From assembly GCA_031546965.1 (NCBI GenBank), contig JAVBJR010000595.1, forward strand, positions 7,041 through 71,040: a DNA stretch of 64,000 nt, written 5' to 3'. This stretch comes from Dysgonomonas sp. Lineage in GTDB: Bacteria > Bacteroidota > Bacteroidia > Bacteroidales > Dysgonomonadaceae. The position numbers and the translations under genes are program-made. Below the pieces are notes generated by a model that made no database searches, had not been told where the DNA came from, and was given only the letters and a program-made list of their open reading frames with translations. Shown here one piece after another: positions 5,593 to 10,922 of this stretch; position 1 is the stretch's first letter, and each line of letters starts with the position of its first letter.

Positions 5593-6651
5593 ATGAACGC
5601 ATCATTTATAGCAAATCTTCGCCTCAACAACCAACTTCTGATGGGATCGGATCTCAAAACACCTCAAGAGGTTGTATCGTGGATGGGAGCCATTCAAGCA
5701 CAAGATTTCAATATGGCAAAATGGGCTTTAGGAGTGCGTTTGCCCCTATTGACCAATAAGTTGGTAGAAGATGCCTTAAATAATGGACAGATTGTACGAA
5801 CTCATATATTGCGCCCCACATGGCATTTAGTAGCCGGAGAAGACATTCATTGGATGCTGGGTTTATCGGCTCCCCGATTGATGTCGATAATGAGGGGGTA
5901 CGCCAAAGCGGTAAACCTCACCGAAGCCACTATCGAAAAAGGATGCGATATCATCGGGCAATCATTGAGCCAGGAGGGACATTTAACCCGACCTCAATTG
6001 GGTGAAGCATTGAAGCGTAAAGGTATCGAATTGGCAAGTCTACACCAATTGACCCATTTGATGTTTGCGGCAGAGTTGGCAGGAATAGTTTGCAATGGGG
6101 AGATAAAAAACGACAAGCAAACTTATTATTTATTAGAAGAGAAAATACCCAAGACCGAAATATTCGATAGAAATACAGCTTTAGAAAGATTGGCTCGAAA
6201 GTACTTCACAAGCCATGCTCCTGCCACCTTGTCCGATTTTGTTTGGTGGTCGGGCTTAACGGTTACGGATGCAAAGGCGGCTATGGAAATGATTAAGCAC
6301 GATTTTGTTATCGAAACAATAGACTCGCAACCCTATTGGATTAATAATTCTTTTGCTGAACGAAAAAATAGCGATGATTCTCTGGTCTTATTACCTGCTT
6401 GGGACGAATTTGTTGTCAGCTACAAAAACAGGCAGCATATTGTTTTAGACGAGCATTATAAGAAAGTGATTTCCATAAATGGCATCTTCAAACCGGTGAT
6501 TGTTAAAGACGGACAAATTATCGGCATGTGGAAAAGGGTTAAGAAGAAAGGCAAAGTAATTGCACAATTGGAACTGTTTGATGATACCGATAATTCTACA
6601 AAAAACTTAATAGAAAAAGCGTGTCATTCATTTGATTTGTTTCATAGCTAA
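5593..6651 (+). CDS. HTH_42 winged-helix protein, AlkZ/YcaQ-family DNA glycosylase
   Basis: MGAIQAQD catalytic-type motif, RTHILRPTWH, ATLSDFVWWSGL, LLPAWDE, FKPVIVKDGQIIGMW. Confidence 0.8.
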   Translation: MNASFIANLRLNNQLLMGSDLKTPQEVVSWMGAIQAQDFNMAKWALGVRLPLLTNKLVEDALNNGQIVRTHILRPTWHLVAGEDIHWMLGLSAPRLMSIMRGYAKAVNLTEATIEKGCDIIGQSLSQEGHLTRPQLGEALKRKGIELASLHQLTHLMFAAELAGIVCNGEIKNDKQTYYLLEEKIPKTEIFDRNTALERLARKYFTSHAPATLSDFVWWSGLTVTDAKAAMEMIKHDFVIETIDSQPYWINNSFAERKNSDDSLVLLPAWDEFVVSYKNRQHIVLDEHYKKVISINGIFKPVIVKDGQIIGMWKRVKKKGKVIAQLELFDDTDNSTKNLIEKACHSFDLFHS

Positions 6652-7563: not shown

Positions 7564-8055
7564 ATGGCAGATACAATCACATGGCAAGCAGATTATTTTA
7601 AGGATTTAGATATTTATAAGCTATACAATTTACTTTATTTGCGTGCCGAAGTATTTGTAGTAGAACAAATATGCCCCTATTTAGATCCTGATAATAAAGA
7701 CTACAAAGCTCTGCATCTGCAAGGCTATGTAGGCGAAAAATTGGTTGCGTATTGCCGATTATTTAAGCCCGGCGACTATTTCAAAGAAGCATCCATCGGT
7801 AGGGTTGTTGTAGCTGCCGATTACCGCAAATACGGTTATGGACATCAATTAATGGCAAAGGCAATAGAACTTCAAGCATCATTATTAAGGGAAACAAAAA
7901 TAACCATATCGGCTCAATTGTACTTGAAGAAATTTTACGAAAGTCATGGTTTTATACAAACTTCGGACGTTTATCCCGAAGACGATATCCCCCATATAGA
8001 AATGAAACTGGAACGGAATTTTCTTAAAAGCAATAAACAAAACTCGTTGTTTTAA
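7564..8055 (+). CDS. ElaA-family GNAT N-acetyltransferase
   Basis: LYNLLYLRAEVFVVEQICPYLDPD, IGRVVV, ISAQLYLKKFYESHGF, EDDIPHIEM. Confidence 0.9.
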   Translation: MADTITWQADYFKDLDIYKLYNLLYLRAEVFVVEQICPYLDPDNKDYKALHLQGYVGEKLVAYCRLFKPGDYFKEASIGRVVVAADYRKYGYGHQLMAKAIELQASLLRETKITISAQLYLKKFYESHGFIQTSDVYPEDDIPHIEMKLERNFLKSNKQNSLF

Positions 8056-8067
8056 AAAATTATACAT

Positions 8068-9138
8068 ATGGATTATATTGATATAAAAGGATATAAGTCG
8101 ATAAAAGACCTCCACTTGGAACTGAAGCCCATAAATGTTCTGATTGGGGCAAATGGTGCAGGGAAGAGTAATTTTCTTTCTTTCTTTGAATTATTAAACC
8201 GATTATATAACCAAAAACTTAATCCTTATATAGGGCTGAAAGGAGGGGCAGATAAAATTCTTCACAAAGGGAGTAAAATCTCAACAAAAATATATGCCAA
8301 AATACAATTTGGATTAAATGGCTATTCTTTCGAAATTGAGAATGGAGATGATGGTTTTATTTTCACCCAAGAAGGTGTCTGGTATGATCGTAATCCATTT
8401 ATGGAAAATCCTACCAATATTTGTACTGGAAAAGATGAGGCATCAATAAAAGATCAAGCTTACCCTACGCGTGTAATATACACAAAAGAATATCTTAAAT
8501 CTTTTGTTAAATATCATTTTCATGATACTGGTACAAATTCTCCTTTTACAAAAATGAGTCATATTGAAAATGATGTATATTTTTTATACGAAAGAGGAGA
8601 AAATTTAGCAGCTTTTTTATATACCATAAAGCTAAAACAGCCCATAATATATCGAAGAATCATAGAAACAATTCAAAGTGTAGCTCCATTTTTTTCAGAT
8701 TTCTACTTGGAGCCTAATGAAGAAAAATTAGTTAGATTACAATGGCAAGACCAGTATTCTTCTACAGTATATGGAGCTACCGATTTTTCAGATGGAACTT
8801 TGCGTTTTATTGCTCTCTCTGTTTTATTCTTGCAGCCTAATCCTCCAACTGTAATTGTAATCGACGAACCTGAATTGGGTTTACACCCCTTTGCCATAGA
8901 TAAACTATCGGGACTTATCCAATCTGTAGCTAACAGAAAGATTCAGACGATAATATCGACACAGTCAGTGGAGCTAGTTAACTGTTTTACCCCTGAAGAC
9001 ATAATTGCTGTGGATAATATCAATGGGGAATCTCTATTTGAAAGATTAGATTCAAATAAACTAAAGGTTTGGATGGATGATTATGCGATTGGAGATATGT
9101 GGAGGCAGAATATTCTGAGTAAAGGATTTCCTAATTAA
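8068..9138 (+). CDS. ABC-type AAA ATPase (AAA_21-like, predicted ATPase)
   Basis: Walker A GANGAGKS, signature FSDGT, Walker B/D-loop IVIDEPELGLHP; visibly AT-richer than its neighbours. Confidence 0.88.
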   Translation: MDYIDIKGYKSIKDLHLELKPINVLIGANGAGKSNFLSFFELLNRLYNQKLNPYIGLKGGADKILHKGSKISTKIYAKIQFGLNGYSFEIENGDDGFIFTQEGVWYDRNPFMENPTNICTGKDEASIKDQAYPTRVIYTKEYLKSFVKYHFHDTGTNSPFTKMSHIENDVYFLYERGENLAAFLYTIKLKQPIIYRRIIETIQSVAPFFSDFYLEPNEEKLVRLQWQDQYSSTVYGATDFSDGTLRFIALSVLFLQPNPPTVIVIDEPELGLHPFAIDKLSGLIQSVANRKIQTIISTQSVELVNCFTPEDIIAVDNINGESLFERLDSNKLKVWMDDYAIGDMWRQNILSKGFPN

Positions 9139-9150
9139 TAATTTGCATCC

Positions 9151-9798
9151 ATGAAAAAGTTGATAATTATTTGTGAAGGAAATACTGAATTTCAGTTTTG
9201 CAGAGATGTTTTAAAGCCTTATTTTGCACCGAAAGAGATTGATGTCGAATTTAGATTGATTGCAAAATCAGCAGGTGGAATTGTAAAATGGGATTCTTTA
9301 AAATTGGATATAGAGAATTATTTAAAGGCGGAACCCGATGTTTTTGTTACGACATTTATAGATTTATACGGGATCCATAGTCATCATAAGTTTCCAGAAT
9401 TCAATACTATAACAGCTAATAATAAGCAAAAGGCTATTGTCATGGAAACAGGAATGAAAAATGATATAGACGGAGCTTTAGTCTCTCGTTTTATACCATA
9501 TATTCAGTTGCATGAGTTTGAGAGTTTAGTGTTTTGTTCTTTAGAGGTCTTAAAAACAAAGTTTATGCCGAATGAGGCTGATTTCTCGGAATTAGAGAGA
9601 ATTATTAATACCCATACAACCCCGGAGGAAATCAATAATAGTCCAACAACAGCCCCATCAAAGAGACTTGAAAAAAGCATCTCTGTTTATAGCAAGAAAT
9701 TGTGTAGTGTTTCAATAACTAAAGATATTGGCATGGTAGAGCTAAAGAATAAATGTCCTCATTTTAGACACTGGATTGAGCAATTAGAGAAGATATAG
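9151..9798 (+). CDS. DUF4276 family protein (TOPRIM-like)
   Basis: IICEGNTE, TTFIDLYG, YIQLHEFESL, PEEINNSPTTAPSKRL, CPHFRHWI; 12 nt downstream of the ATPase. Confidence 0.82.
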   Translation: MKKLIIICEGNTEFQFCRDVLKPYFAPKEIDVEFRLIAKSAGGIVKWDSLKLDIENYLKAEPDVFVTTFIDLYGIHSHHKFPEFNTITANNKQKAIVMETGMKNDIDGALVSRFIPYIQLHEFESLVFCSLEVLKTKFMPNEADFSELERIINTHTTPEEINNSPTTAPSKRLEKSISVYSKKLCSVSITKDIGMVELKNKCPHFRHWIEQLEKI

Positions 9799-9887
9799 AC
9801 AATTTCAGATTATATTCTCAAGCCAAGAGAAATAATGATATTAGTTAATATGGTTCGTATTTAATAATCACAATATATAAGATAGCA

Positions 9888-10922
9888 ATGAAGAAAAAAA
9901 TTTTGGTAACAGGCGGAACCGGATATATTGGTTCGCATACTGCCGTTGAACTGCAAAATGCAGGATATGAGGTAATTATTGTAGACAACTTATCGAACTC
10001 TACAGCCGATAGCATCGGGGGTATCGAGCGTATTACAGGCACTCGTCCCGTATTCGAGAATATAGATTGTAATGATGAGGCAGCATTGCGTAAAGTTTTC
10101 GAAAAACATTCGCCTATCAGTGGTATCATACATTTTGCGGCAAGTAAAGCAGTGGGCGAATCGGTCGAGAAACCGTTGCTATACTACAAAAACAATTTGG
10201 TGTCGCTCATCAATCTTTTGGAAGTGATGCCCGAATTTAATGTAAAAGGGATCGTATTCTCTTCTTCATGTACTGTTTATGGGGAGCCTGACGTAAATCC
10301 TATCGACGAAACTGCACCCATAAAACCGGCTGCTTCGCCTTATGGAAATACAAAACAAATCAATGAAGAAATTATTCAGGATTTTGTAGCCTCCGGAGCA
10401 AATATCAAAAGTATTATCCTGCGCTATTTTAATCCCGTAGGAGCGCATCCTACTGCCGAACTGGGCGAATTACCTAACGGTGTTCCTCAAAACCTAGTGC
10501 CCTTTATCACCCAAACAGCCATGGGAATCCGCAAAGAGTTGAGTGTTTTTGGTGACGATTACGATACTCCCGACGGATCGTGTATACGTGACTTTATAGA
10601 TGTGGTAGACCTGGCTAAGGCTCATGTGATAGCCATAGAAAGAATGTTGCAAGACAAATCTCAAGATAAAGTAGAAGTATTTAATCTGGGTACAGGCAAC
10701 GGTGTATCGGTACTGGAACTAATCAATGTATTTGAAAAAGTATCGGGTGTGAAACTGAACTACAAAGTAGTAGGACGCCGTACCGGAGATATCATCAAGA
10801 TATGGGCTCAACCATCAAAAGCCAACAATGTTCTAGGTTGGACTGCAAAAGAACCAATTGAAAACACCATGGCTGCTGCTTGGAAATGGCAACAAAAACT
10901 GCGAGAAAAAGGCATCATGTAA
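9888..10922 (+). CDS. galE: UDP-glucose 4-epimerase
   Basis: GGTGYIGSH, HFAASKAVGES, SSSCTVYG, YGNTK, LRYFNPVGAH. Confidence 0.97.
   Translation: MKKKILVTGGTGYIGSHTAVELQNAGYEVIIVDNLSNSTADSIGGIERITGTRPVFENIDCNDEAALRKVFEKHSPISGIIHFAASKAVGESVEKPLLYYKNNLVSLINLLEVMPEFNVKGIVFSSSCTVYGEPDVNPIDETAPIKPAASPYGNTKQINEEIIQDFVASGANIKSIILRYFNPVGAHPTAELGELPNGVPQNLVPFITQTAMGIRKELSVFGDDYDTPDGSCIRDFIDVVDLAKAHVIAIERMLQDKSQDKVEVFNLGTGNGVSVLELINVFEKVSGVKLNYKVVGRRTGDIIKIWAQPSKANNVLGWTAKEPIENTMAAAWKWQQKLREKGIM

What the first reader, a model, noticed from the sequence alone, without database searches (positions are those of the whole stretch)
8068..9798. AT-rich ABC-ATPase + DUF4276 TOPRIM-like pair with PARIS-like architecture: candidate anti-phage system
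Seen: a two-gene unit (12-nt gap) between housekeeping genes (ElaA-like GNAT, galE), visibly AT-richer than its flanks. Gene 1 is a soluble ABC ATPase (GANGAGKS, FSDG, DEPELGLHP). Gene 2 starts with a TOPRIM-type acidic motif (ICEGNTE) and has a DLY at the DxD position. Established: ABC ATPase sensor + TOPRIM nuclease effector is the layout of PARIS (AriA/AriB with DUF4435), OLD and Gabija. Inference: this is a related abortive-infection or toxin-antitoxin module with a different effector family, which I do not know to be functionally characterised.
Basis: partly seen in the sequence, partly recalled or inferred. Interest (0 to 1): 0.7.

Follow-up and report, generated by a model that had tools for sequence, protein, structure and literature searches.

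The report
Horizontally acquired HEC-01 ATPase–nuclease defence cassette
This is a real two-gene ATPase plus Toprim-like nuclease cassette, slotted into a housekeeping operon of this one Bacteroidota genome; it belongs to the already catalogued candidate anti-phage system HEC-01, so it is a sound call but not a new kind of system.

Summary
Two co-oriented ORFs (8068-9138, 356 aa; 9151-9798, 215 aa; 12-nt gap) carry the quoted motifs.

- **Insertion:** they lie in a 1.85-kb, low-GC segment (32.5% vs 38.7%). This segment is absent from all 8 congeners checked, where the GNAT gene abuts galE.
- **Identity:** both proteins hit the PADLOC candidate system HEC-01 over their full length (A 3e-133, B 5e-70). 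Gene 2 is Pfam DUF4276.
- **Published work:** DUF4276 is classed as Toprim-like. The homologous MAD3-MAD4 module is a 2:2 ATPase-nuclease complex that nicks DNA and is toxic only when co-expressed. One HEC-01 gave no phage protection in E. coli; another protected against at least one of T4/T5/T7.
- **Gene pairing:** the pairing is near-obligate, with the ATPase directly upstream in 78/79 loci.
- **Context:** 15% of loci sit between type III Mod and Res genes, including the closest relative (about 82% aa, next to an integrase). The rest are solo, and context switched at least 5 times.
- **Selection:** both genes are under purifying selection (dN/dS 0.05-0.12).
- **Local variants:** the Toprim DxD is an invariant D-x-Y/F, and the ABC H-loop His is an invariant Gln.

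It is not PARIS (no DUF4435, and the ATPase is not AriA-like). Verdict: a new member of a known kind; defence at this locus is untested.

The parts
8013..9861 (.). Inserted segment of about 1849 bp carrying the cassette. It is absent from 8 congeneric genomes.
   Evidence: DNA alignments to the empty GNAT-galE junction of G001, G002, G003 and G009. tblastn synteny in 8 congeners. GC 0.3245. No target-site duplication or terminal inverted repeat.
8068..9138 (+). Gene 1: HEC-01A-type soluble ABC ATPase, 356 aa (an SMC/Rad50/PtuA-like head without a coiled coil).
   Evidence: PADLOC PDLC04175 HEC-01A 3e-133, full length. Pfam AAA_21 8.6e-29 and AAA_15. AF2 model pLDDT 92.6. Foldseek top hits are PtuA, SMC head, Rad50, RecN, GajA and OLD, E about 1e-13 to 1e-11.
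8146..8169 (+). Walker A / P-loop, G27-A-N-G-A-G-K-S34.
   Evidence: G27, N29, G30, G32 and K33 are invariant in 51 homologues.
8785..8805 (+). ABC signature motif, F240-S-D-G-T-L-R246.
   Evidence: S241, D242, G243, T244 and R246 are invariant.
8851..8889 (+). Walker B and D-loop, V262-I-V-I-D-E-P-E-L-G-L-H-P274.
   Evidence: D266 through P274 are invariant.
8959..8967 (+). H-loop position, T298-Q299-S300. The switch His is replaced by an invariant Gln.
   Evidence: T298 and Q299 are invariant in 51 homologues. The position follows strand 293-297 of the model.
9151..9798 (+). Gene 2: HEC-01B / DUF4276, 215 aa. It has a Toprim-like alpha/beta domain (residues 1 to about 130) and a helical domain.
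   Evidence: Pfam DUF4276 5.8e-49, covering the full profile. PADLOC PDLC04188 HEC-01B 5.1e-70. AF2 pLDDT 94.5. Best PDB fold hit is 8ux9_A, a 306-residue chain of the PARIS complex that I take to be AriB from its length, E 0.02. RloB-like protein is second in BFVD. hhalign against RloB gives E 1.3e-4.
9172..9189 (+). Toprim motif 1, C8-E9-G-N-T-E13, at the end of beta-1.
   Evidence: E9, G10 and E13 are 141/141 conserved in representatives clustered at 50% identity.
9361..9369 (+). Toprim motif 2 position, D71-L-Y73, at the end of beta-3. D is invariant; the second Asp is replaced by Tyr or Phe.
   Evidence: D71 141/141; Y73 128 Y, 12 F, 1 C. Aligned to the DxD of RloB.
9511..9522 (+). Second acidic cluster, H121-E122-F-E124, after beta-4.
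   Evidence: E122 and E124 are 141/141. MAD4's metal pocket includes an E119-x-E121 pair (PMC13662399); I infer the correspondence and did not align the two.
7564..8055 (+). Upstream flank: GNAT acetyltransferase. Its last 13-14 codons (8013-8055) come from the insert.
   Evidence: Homology to the 150-151-aa congener proteins stops at residue about 149-151 of 163.
9888..10922 (+). Downstream flank: the galE-type epimerase that directly follows the GNAT gene in congeners.

Best explanation
The unit is a horizontally acquired, stand-alone copy of the HEC-01 cassette. HEC-01A is a compact SMC/Rad50/PtuA-like ABC ATPase, and HEC-01B is a DUF4276 Toprim-like metal-dependent nuclease. A roughly 1.85-kb segment holding just these two genes was inserted between a GNAT gene and galE. 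It is probably read through from the GNAT promoter.

By homology with MAD3-MAD4, the two proteins most likely form an A2B2 complex. In that complex the ATPase dimer scaffolds and gates the nuclease. The nuclease's acidic pocket (E9, E13, D71, E122, E124, E159) would bind Mg2+/Mn2+ and cut nucleic acid, with DNA nicking or cleavage the best-supported target. On phage infection, activation would destroy phage DNA or abort the infected cell.

Shown here: the identity of both genes, the insertion, the obligate pairing, conservation of the catalytic residues, purifying selection, and repeated movement between R-M-embedded and solo contexts.

Inferred: complex formation, substrate, trigger and the anti-phage phenotype at this locus.
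For: - **Identity:** PADLOC HEC-01A 3e-133 and HEC-01B 5.1e-70, both full length. Pfam AAA_21 and DUF4276.
- **Accessory and acquired:** 8/8 congeners have the GNAT gene directly followed by galE. A homologue is present in only 6 of 40 relatives. GC is 32.5% against 38.7%. The cassette tree cuts across taxonomy.
- **Functional unit:** the ATPase lies directly upstream, on the same strand, in 78 of 79 evaluable loci. DNA homology to the R-M-embedded relative covers exactly 8066-9797, that is, only the two ORFs.
- **Conflict context:** the closest cassette outside this insertion site (about 82% aa for both proteins) lies integrase-Mod-[A-B]-Res. 12 of 79 loci lie between Mod and Res genes. At least 5 context switches are forced by well-supported branches.
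- **Intact machinery:** Walker A, signature, Walker B and D-loop are invariant. E9, E13, D71, E122 and E124 are invariant and E159 nearly so (140 of 141). dN/dS is 0.05-0.12. Both models are high-confidence. The ATPase fold matches PtuA, SMC, Rad50, GajA and OLD.
- **Transcription hint:** a metatranscriptome contig is identical to 8712-9104.
- **Literature:**
  - MAD3-MAD4 is a 2:2 complex with complex-dependent ATPase activity and Mg/Mn-dependent plasmid nicking. It is toxic only on co-expression (PMC13662399).
  - DUF4276 is placed in the Toprim superfamily (PMC12065111).
  - One HEC-01 protected E. coli B against at least one of T7, T5 and T4 (PMC12881386).
Against: - No phenotype is known for this locus.
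- The HEC-01 tested by Payne et al. protected against none of their phages (bioRxiv 10.1101/2024.01.29.577857).
- The relation to MAD3/MAD4 is remote. NCBIfam MAD3 scores 91 bits against a cut-off of 420, and gene 2 hit no MAD4 model. Stoichiometry and substrate are therefore extrapolated.
- My own fold evidence for Toprim is weak: Foldseek E 0.02 and TM 0.33, and hhalign against DUF4435 is not significant.
- The second Asp of the DxD is missing, and the ABC switch His is a Gln. Either change could alter or slow catalysis.
- The locus is not in a defence island, and no mobility signature explains the insertion.
- In MAD3-MAD4, mutating the pocket residues reduced cleavage only modestly, and ATP hydrolysis was not coupled to cleavage (PMC13662399).
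Confidence: 0.65

Rival explanations
1. It is a selfish addiction module of the toxin-antitoxin type. The nuclease is a toxin held in check by the ATPase, and the pair persists by post-segregational killing or as hitch-hiking DNA. It gives no benefit against phages.
For: - Patchy distribution, and insertion into unrelated housekeeping sites with no defence island.
- Pfam names AAA_21 a 'putative AbiEii toxin, type IV TA'.
- One HEC-01 gave no protection (bioRxiv 10.1101/2024.01.29.577857).
Against: - In MAD3-MAD4 neither protein is toxic alone; toxicity needs both, and MAD4 is insoluble without MAD3 (PMC13662399). That is not toxin-antitoxin logic.
- Another HEC-01 did protect (PMC12881386).
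- Recurrent embedding inside R-M operons points to immunity.
Confidence: 0.13
2. It is an accessory part of restriction-modification, as MAD3-MAD4 is within MADS and HEC-01 is within Hma. The pair would work only with a cognate Mod/Res system, and this solo copy is an orphan that is inert or acts in trans.
For: - The closest cassette outside this site is embedded between Mod and Res next to an integrase.
- 12 of 79 loci are embedded, with tight or overlapping gene spacing.
- MAD3-MAD4 is one module of an eight-gene system (PMC13662399).
Against: - 67 of 79 loci are solo.
- Solo cassettes, including this one, are under strong purifying selection (dN/dS 0.05-0.12).
- The window's assembly has no homologue of that Mod/Res pair. 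The assembly is only 94% complete.
- Payne et al. treat embedded genes as independent systems.
Confidence: 0.12
3. It is a DNA repair or recombination accessory. An ABC ATPase with a Toprim protein would then work like RecF-RecR or Rad50-type machinery, for the host's own benefit.
For: - The ATPase fold is closest to SMC, Rad50 and RecN heads.
- An AlkZ-like DNA glycosylase lies 1.4 kb upstream.
Against: - The cassette is absent from 8/8 congeners at this site and from 34 of 40 relatives overall.
- It has foreign GC.
- The AlkZ gene is part of the conserved flank, not of the insert.
- Other copies sit in R-M operons.
Confidence: 0.05

Closest known systems
HEC-01 (Hma-embedded candidate 01; PADLOC-DB v2; Payne et al. 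2024, bioRxiv 10.1101/2024.01.29.577857)
   Same: Both genes match HEC-01A and HEC-01B models end to end (3e-133 and 5e-70). The gene order is the same, with tight spacing. The ABC ATPase plus Toprim-like partner are as described in the paper.
   Different: This copy is solo, in a housekeeping operon, not embedded in Hma or an R-M system. The tested HEC-01 representatives are other sequences, with one negative and one positive phage assay.
MAD3-MAD4 module of the Pseudomonas aeruginosa MADS system (PMC13662399)
   Same: A separate ABC ATPase plus a DUF4276-type Toprim-like nuclease with a helical domain. The acidic pocket includes a D at the end of beta-3 and an E-x-E pair. MAD3's nearest folds (SMC, Rad50, PtuA) are the same as for gene 1.
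   Different: - The sequence relation is remote: MAD3 equivalog 91 bits against a cut-off of 420, with no MAD4 model hit.
- The ATPase is about 356 aa against about 50 kDa for MAD3.
- MAD4 has D81-x-E83 where this family has D71-x-Y73.
- MAD3 has an H-loop His (H391) where this family has Gln.
- There is no surrounding MADS locus.
PARIS (AriA/AriB)
   Same: A two-gene layout of an AAA_15/21-type ABC ATPase followed by a Toprim-superfamily effector. The best PDB fold hit of gene 2 is a chain of the PARIS complex that I take to be AriB (8ux9_A).
   Different: - Gene 2 is DUF4276, not DUF4435. The profile comparison is not significant.
- No entry named as an AriA-AriB/PARIS complex is among the top 50 fold hits of gene 1.
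- The AriA PADLOC hits are only 95 and 65 bits against 442 for HEC-01A.
- tRNA cleavage and Ocr sensing are unknown here.
RloA/RloB restriction-linked ORFs, and OLD/Gabija class nucleases
   Same: - RloB aligns with DUF4276 from beta-1 to beta-3 (hhalign E 1.3e-4), matching the CEG-TE and D motifs.
- Like the Rlo genes, many cassettes sit inside R-M loci.
- OLD and GajA share the ABC plus Toprim logic.
   Different: Pfam assigns gene 2 to DUF4276, not RloB. In OLD and GajA the two domains are fused in one protein and keep the DxD. There is no GajB-like helicase partner.

Membership tests
HEC-01 (PADLOC candidate system) | Protein A matches a HEC-01A model | tested here: met
   PDLC04175 3e-133, 442 bits, residues 1-351 on profile 6-359 of 363.
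HEC-01 (PADLOC candidate system) | Protein B matches a HEC-01B model (DUF4276) | tested here: met
   PDLC04188 5.1e-70, residues 1-214. Pfam DUF4276 5.8e-49, 167 bits against a cut-off of 30.2.
HEC-01 (PADLOC candidate system) | A and B are adjacent and co-oriented | tested here: met
   12-nt gap, same strand. The same arrangement is seen in 78 of 79 related loci.
HEC-01 (PADLOC candidate system) | Anti-phage activity | not testable with these tools
   For other representatives the literature is mixed: none in Payne et al. 2024, protection against at least one of T7/T5/T4 in PMC12881386.
MADS MAD3-MAD4 | ATPase reaches the NCBIfam MAD3 equivalog cut-off | tested here: not met
   NF047739 scores 91.4 bits against a cut-off of 420. 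PADLOC mad3 scores 76.5 bits.
MADS MAD3-MAD4 | Partner matches a MAD4 model, and the pair lies in a multi-gene MADS locus with a methyltransferase | tested here: not met
   Gene 2 hit only HEC-01B models in PADLOC and nothing in NCBIfam. The neighbours are a GNAT gene and galE.
PARIS (AriA/AriB) | Effector is a DUF4435 Toprim protein (AriB) | tested here: not met
   No DUF4435 Pfam hit. hhalign of DUF4276 against a DUF4435 alignment gives P 0.01-0.04 over 29-41 columns only.
PARIS (AriA/AriB) | ATPase is AriA-type | tested here: not met
   The AriA models score 95 and 65 bits against 442 for HEC-01A. No entry named as an AriA-AriB/PARIS complex is among the top 50 Foldseek PDB hits.
Toprim superfamily | Conserved Glu at the end of beta-1 | tested here: met
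   E9 is 141/141 and follows strand 2-8. It aligns with the Glu of RloB and of DUF4435.
Toprim superfamily | DxD after beta-3 | tested here: inconclusive
   D71 is invariant at the end of strand 64-71. The second position is Tyr (128), Phe (12) or Cys (1), never Asp. The invariant acidic residues E13, E122 and E124, with E159 (140 of 141), may compensate.
Toprim superfamily | Toprim fold (four-stranded parallel sheet, alpha/beta) | tested here: inconclusive
   The element order beta-alpha-beta-alpha-beta-alpha-beta fits. The best PDB hit is a PARIS-complex chain I take to be AriB, but at E 0.02 and TM 0.33. RloB-like is second in BFVD. I had no access to the model coordinates. Published analyses assign the fold (PMC12065111, PMC13662399).
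ABC ATPase (SMC/Rad50/OLD-like) | Walker A, signature, Walker B and D-loop motifs, and an ABC head fold | tested here: met
   The motifs are invariant in 51 homologues. The profile hits EcfA2, OLD, UvrA, SMC and Rad50 in the PDB. Foldseek E is 2e-13 and weaker to PtuA, SMC and Rad50.
ABC ATPase (SMC/Rad50/OLD-like) | H-loop switch histidine | tested here: not met
   The position is T298-Q299-S300, with Q299 invariant. This is a family-wide variant, not decay.

The most novel reading that the evidence does not exclude
The solo cassette may be a portable 'restriction back-up' guard. Its lineage has moved repeatedly between a slot inside type III Mod/Res operons and free-standing sites. It might therefore sense phage anti-restriction measures or stalled restriction, in the manner of PrrC and PARIS. 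It would then fire a non-canonical Toprim nuclease (D-x-Y, extra Glu cluster), under a slow-hydrolysing ABC switch (H-loop Gln).
Probability: 0.15. Interest if true: 0.55.

Novelty: new member of a known kind. Interest (0 to 1): 0.3.

Why it matters
The value is for annotation and for choosing experiments, not for discovery.

- It is a clean natural example of a HEC-01 cassette. The insertion point is known to within a few bases, and empty sites are available in sister species.
- A close relative (about 82% identical) is embedded in an R-M operon. Comparing the pair would address whether 'embedded' defence genes act alone or with their host system.
- The family-wide D-x-Y and H-loop Gln variants are concrete targets for mutagenesis.
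- HEC-01 is among the abundant candidate systems in environmental genomes (PMC12881386), yet its phage phenotype is still thin and contradictory. A Bacteroidota representative tested in a Bacteroides host would be useful.

Tried and rejected
- **PARIS membership:** rejected. There is no DUF4435 hit, hhalign against a DUF4435 alignment built from 19 loci is not significant, and the ATPase fold is not AriA-like.
- **Solved structure of a DUF4276 relative, by sequence:** none in the local PDB copy; the best hit has E 0.047 and is spurious. The MAD3-MAD4 entries post-date that copy.
- **Mobility signature:**
  - No target-site duplication or terminal inverted repeats at 8013/9861.
  - No shared flank motif across 73-81 loci. 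The only recurrent upstream 8-mer is TATATTTG (10 of 73), which resembles what I recall as the Bacteroidota -7 promoter box.
- **Own promoter or terminator:** the sigma-70 scan is not informative for Bacteroidota (22 hits against 14 expected). There is no terminator between the GNAT gene and galE on the + strand.
- **A cognate Mod/Res elsewhere in the genome:** not found. The only match is a 22%-identity methylase fragment.
- **Further copies of the cassette in the genome:** none by tblastn. There is only a very divergent second ATPase-DUF4276 pair.
- **Y73 as a catalytic nucleophile:** considered and dropped, because Phe replaces it in 12 of 141 representatives.
- **AlphaFold-multimer of the A2B2 complex:** could not be run with these tools.
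Full report
**Observation**

The window has two co-oriented ORFs, at 8068..9138 (356 aa) and 9151..9798 (215 aa), separated by 12 nt. The flanks are a GNAT acetyltransferase (7564..8055) and a GalE-type epimerase (9888..10922).

GC falls to 0.30-0.36 across the pair. The inserted segment defined below has GC 0.3245, against 0.387 for the window. Only 0.5% of same-size windows in the 64 kb are as low, and 6.7% genome-wide.

**Identity of the genes**

- Gene 1 matches Pfam AAA_21 (8.6e-29) and AAA_15. Gene 2 matches DUF4276 over the whole profile (5.8e-49).
- Against PADLOC-DB both match the candidate system HEC-01 end to end: HEC-01A PDLC04175 at 3e-133 and HEC-01B PDLC04188 at 5.1e-70. AriA, Old, GajA, NsnB, AbiLi and mad3 models score far lower, at 62-95 bits.
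- NCBIfam's MAD3 equivalog gives 91 bits against a cut-off of 420, and gene 2 has no NCBIfam hit.

**It is an insertion**

- All 8 congeneric genomes that carry the GNAT gene have galE directly after it, in the same flank order AlkZ-YidD-RnpA-GNAT-GalE.
- DNA alignments place the junctions at about 8013 and 9861, giving an 1849-bp insert.
- The insertion replaced the GNAT stop codon, so the GNAT protein has a 13-residue foreign tail (163 aa against about 150).
- No target-site duplication or terminal inverted repeat is visible.
- A homologue of gene 2 occurs in only 6 of 40 relatives. One congener, G007, has a 55-58% identical pair at a different site, between carB and a DUF1622 gene.

**Related cassettes**

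- The protein collection holds more than 1000 close homologues of gene 2. A full scan finds 2794 clusters at 50% identity with E<=1e-3.
- The 85%-identical homologue (L019) lies at the same place, upstream of galE, in another metagenomic contig.
- The 81%-identical homologue (L020-L022) lies in the order integrase, N6_N4 methylase (Mod), ATPase, DUF4276, ResIII helicase (Res). DNA similarity between that locus and the window (78%) spans exactly 8066-9797, that is, only the two ORFs.
- The window's assembly has no counterpart of that Mod/Res pair.

Among 80 loci from different species' genomes (almost all Bacteroidota):

- The ATPase lies immediately upstream on the same strand in 78 of 79 evaluable loci. 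One contig is cut at the gene, and L066 is an orphan.
- 12 of 79 loci lie between Mod- and Res-like genes. Two more have a type I HsdR gene downstream. The others have unrelated housekeeping neighbours.
- On an ATPase tree the window pairs with the R-M-embedded L020 cassette (SH-aLRT 99).
- The embedded/solo label needs 8 changes, at least 5 of them forced by well-supported branches.
- Cassette relationships on the tree cut across host families.

Both genes are under purifying selection. dN/dS is 0.056 and 0.053 against L020, and 0.118 for gene 2 against L019.

**Proteins**

*Gene 1.* Walker A (G27-S34), signature (S241-R246), Walker B with catalytic Glu (D266-E267) and D-loop are invariant in 51 homologues. 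The H-loop position is an invariant T298-Q299, so the switch His is absent family-wide.

The AF2 model (pLDDT 92.6) is closest to PtuA in retron complexes, SMC heads, Rad50, RecN, GajA and OLD (E 2e-13 to 2e-11). No entry named as an AriA-AriB/PARIS complex is in the top 50. The profile also hits ABC ATPases in the PDB by sequence.

*Gene 2.* E9, G10, E13, D71, E122, E124 and P169 are 141/141 in representatives clustered at 50% identity, and E159 and K182 are 140/141. Position 73 is Tyr (128), Phe (12) or Cys (1), never Asp.

The model (pLDDT 94.5) has a beta-alpha-beta-alpha-beta-alpha-beta core followed by a helical domain.

| Test of the Toprim assignment | Result |
|---|---|
| Foldseek against PDB | Best hit 8ux9_A, a PARIS-complex chain I take to be AriB from its length; E 0.02, TM 0.33 |
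| Foldseek against BFVD | RloB-like protein ranks second |
| Profile search of PDB sequences | No relative found |
| hhalign against DUF4435 | Not significant; only the beta-1 Glu motif aligns |
| hhalign against RloB | E 1.3e-4 over beta-1 to beta-3; D71 and Y73 fall on RloB's DxD |

My own evidence for a Toprim fold is therefore suggestive only. The assignment rests mainly on published work.

**Literature**

- Payne et al. (bioRxiv 10.1101/2024.01.29.577857) defined HEC-01 as an ABC ATPase plus TOPRIM protein embedded in Hma systems. They found no protection against their phages.
- A HEC-01 from a cold-seep genome protected E. coli B against at least one of T7, T5 and T4 (PMC12881386).
- Burman et al. 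list DUF4276 among the domain annotations of their AAA15/21 tree and add MADS3-4 to the ABC ATPase plus TOPRIM systems (PMC11464382).
- The Menshen study places DUF4276 and RloB in the Toprim superfamily and calls Mad4 a DUF4276 homologue (PMC12065111).
- Zhang et al. 2026 (PMC13662399) studied the MAD3-MAD4 module:
  - It forms a 2:2 heterotetramer.
  - ATPase activity and dsDNA binding need the complex.
  - The complex nicks and linearises plasmid DNA with Mg2+ or Mn2+.
  - MAD4 is insoluble alone, and toxicity needs both proteins.
  - The MAD4 pocket is D12, D55, D81, E83, E119, E121 and K164.
  - ATP hydrolysis was not coupled to cleavage.

**Expression**

No terminator separates the GNAT gene, the pair and galE on the + strand, and the sigma-70 promoter scan is uninformative for this phylum. 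I saw no match to the Bacteroidota -7 box (TAnnTTTG, as I recall it) in the 55 nt before gene 1. Read-through from the GNAT promoter is therefore the likeliest source of expression; this is an inference.

A metatranscriptome from an invertebrate gut holds a 393-nt contig identical to 8712-9104, at a depth similar to a galE contig. DNA carry-over cannot be excluded.

**Mechanism and verdict**

The best reading is a stand-alone HEC-01 cassette acquired horizontally. It probably forms an A2B2 ATPase-gated metal-dependent nuclease complex that acts in phage defence or abortive infection. The trigger is unknown.

The rivals are less well supported. They are a selfish addiction module, an R-M accessory that is orphaned here, and a repair factor.

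The system is not PARIS, MADS, OLD or Gabija by their defining features. It works like them in layout only. It is a new member of a known candidate kind, and interest is modest.

Noticed in passing
G000:C1214:2725-4634 (minus strand; loci L002/L123): The same genome has a second, very divergent ATPase (380 aa) plus DUF4276-like (252 aa) pair, lying between rpmA and a malate dehydrogenase gene. The ATPase hits AbiLi (3.8e-16) and AriA models, and the partner hits HEC-01B models weakly (2.6e-8). It also has VEGQTE, D-L-Y and E-x-E motifs.
   Followed up: partly
L019 170-1928, compared with window 9151-10919: In the contig that shares this insertion site, gene 2 is much less diverged at synonymous sites (pS 0.47) than the adjacent galE (pS 0.71). 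The cassette may therefore have moved between congeners by recombination, or arrived after the species split.
   Followed up: partly
window 8013-8055: The insertion removed the GNAT gene's original stop codon. The acetyltransferase now ends in 13 foreign residues (RNFLKSNKQNSLF). Whether this affects the enzyme is unknown.
   Followed up: no
L066 6995-7642: This is the only evaluable locus with a DUF4276 gene and no detectable HEC-01A-type ATPase upstream. It is a possible orphan, or it may have a very different partner.
   Followed up: no
L108 and L112 (contigs binned as Oscillospiraceae and Lachnospiraceae): Two contigs labelled as Firmicutes carry a cassette whose two proteins have almost the same identities to the window's as each other's (50% and 43%). 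This is either cross-phylum transfer or mis-binning. I did not compare them directly with the other gut loci.
   Followed up: no
whole assembly G000: The assembly is 7.76 Mb in 1298 contigs (median 3.7 kb), with contig GC ranging from 0.23 to 0.58. Congeners are 2.8-5.1 Mb. Despite 0% estimated contamination, it may contain more than one strain or organism.
   Followed up: no
window 5593-6651: An AlkZ-like DNA glycosylase (Pfam 3.2e-57) lies in the conserved flank. It is present in congeners too, so it is not part of the insert.
   Followed up: partly
151-genome sample of the order: Other Toprim-type partners are common in this order: RloB in 48 of 151 genomes, DUF4435 in 28 of 151, and OLD-like TOPRIM in 25 of 151. 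None of the three occurs in the window's own genome.
   Followed up: no
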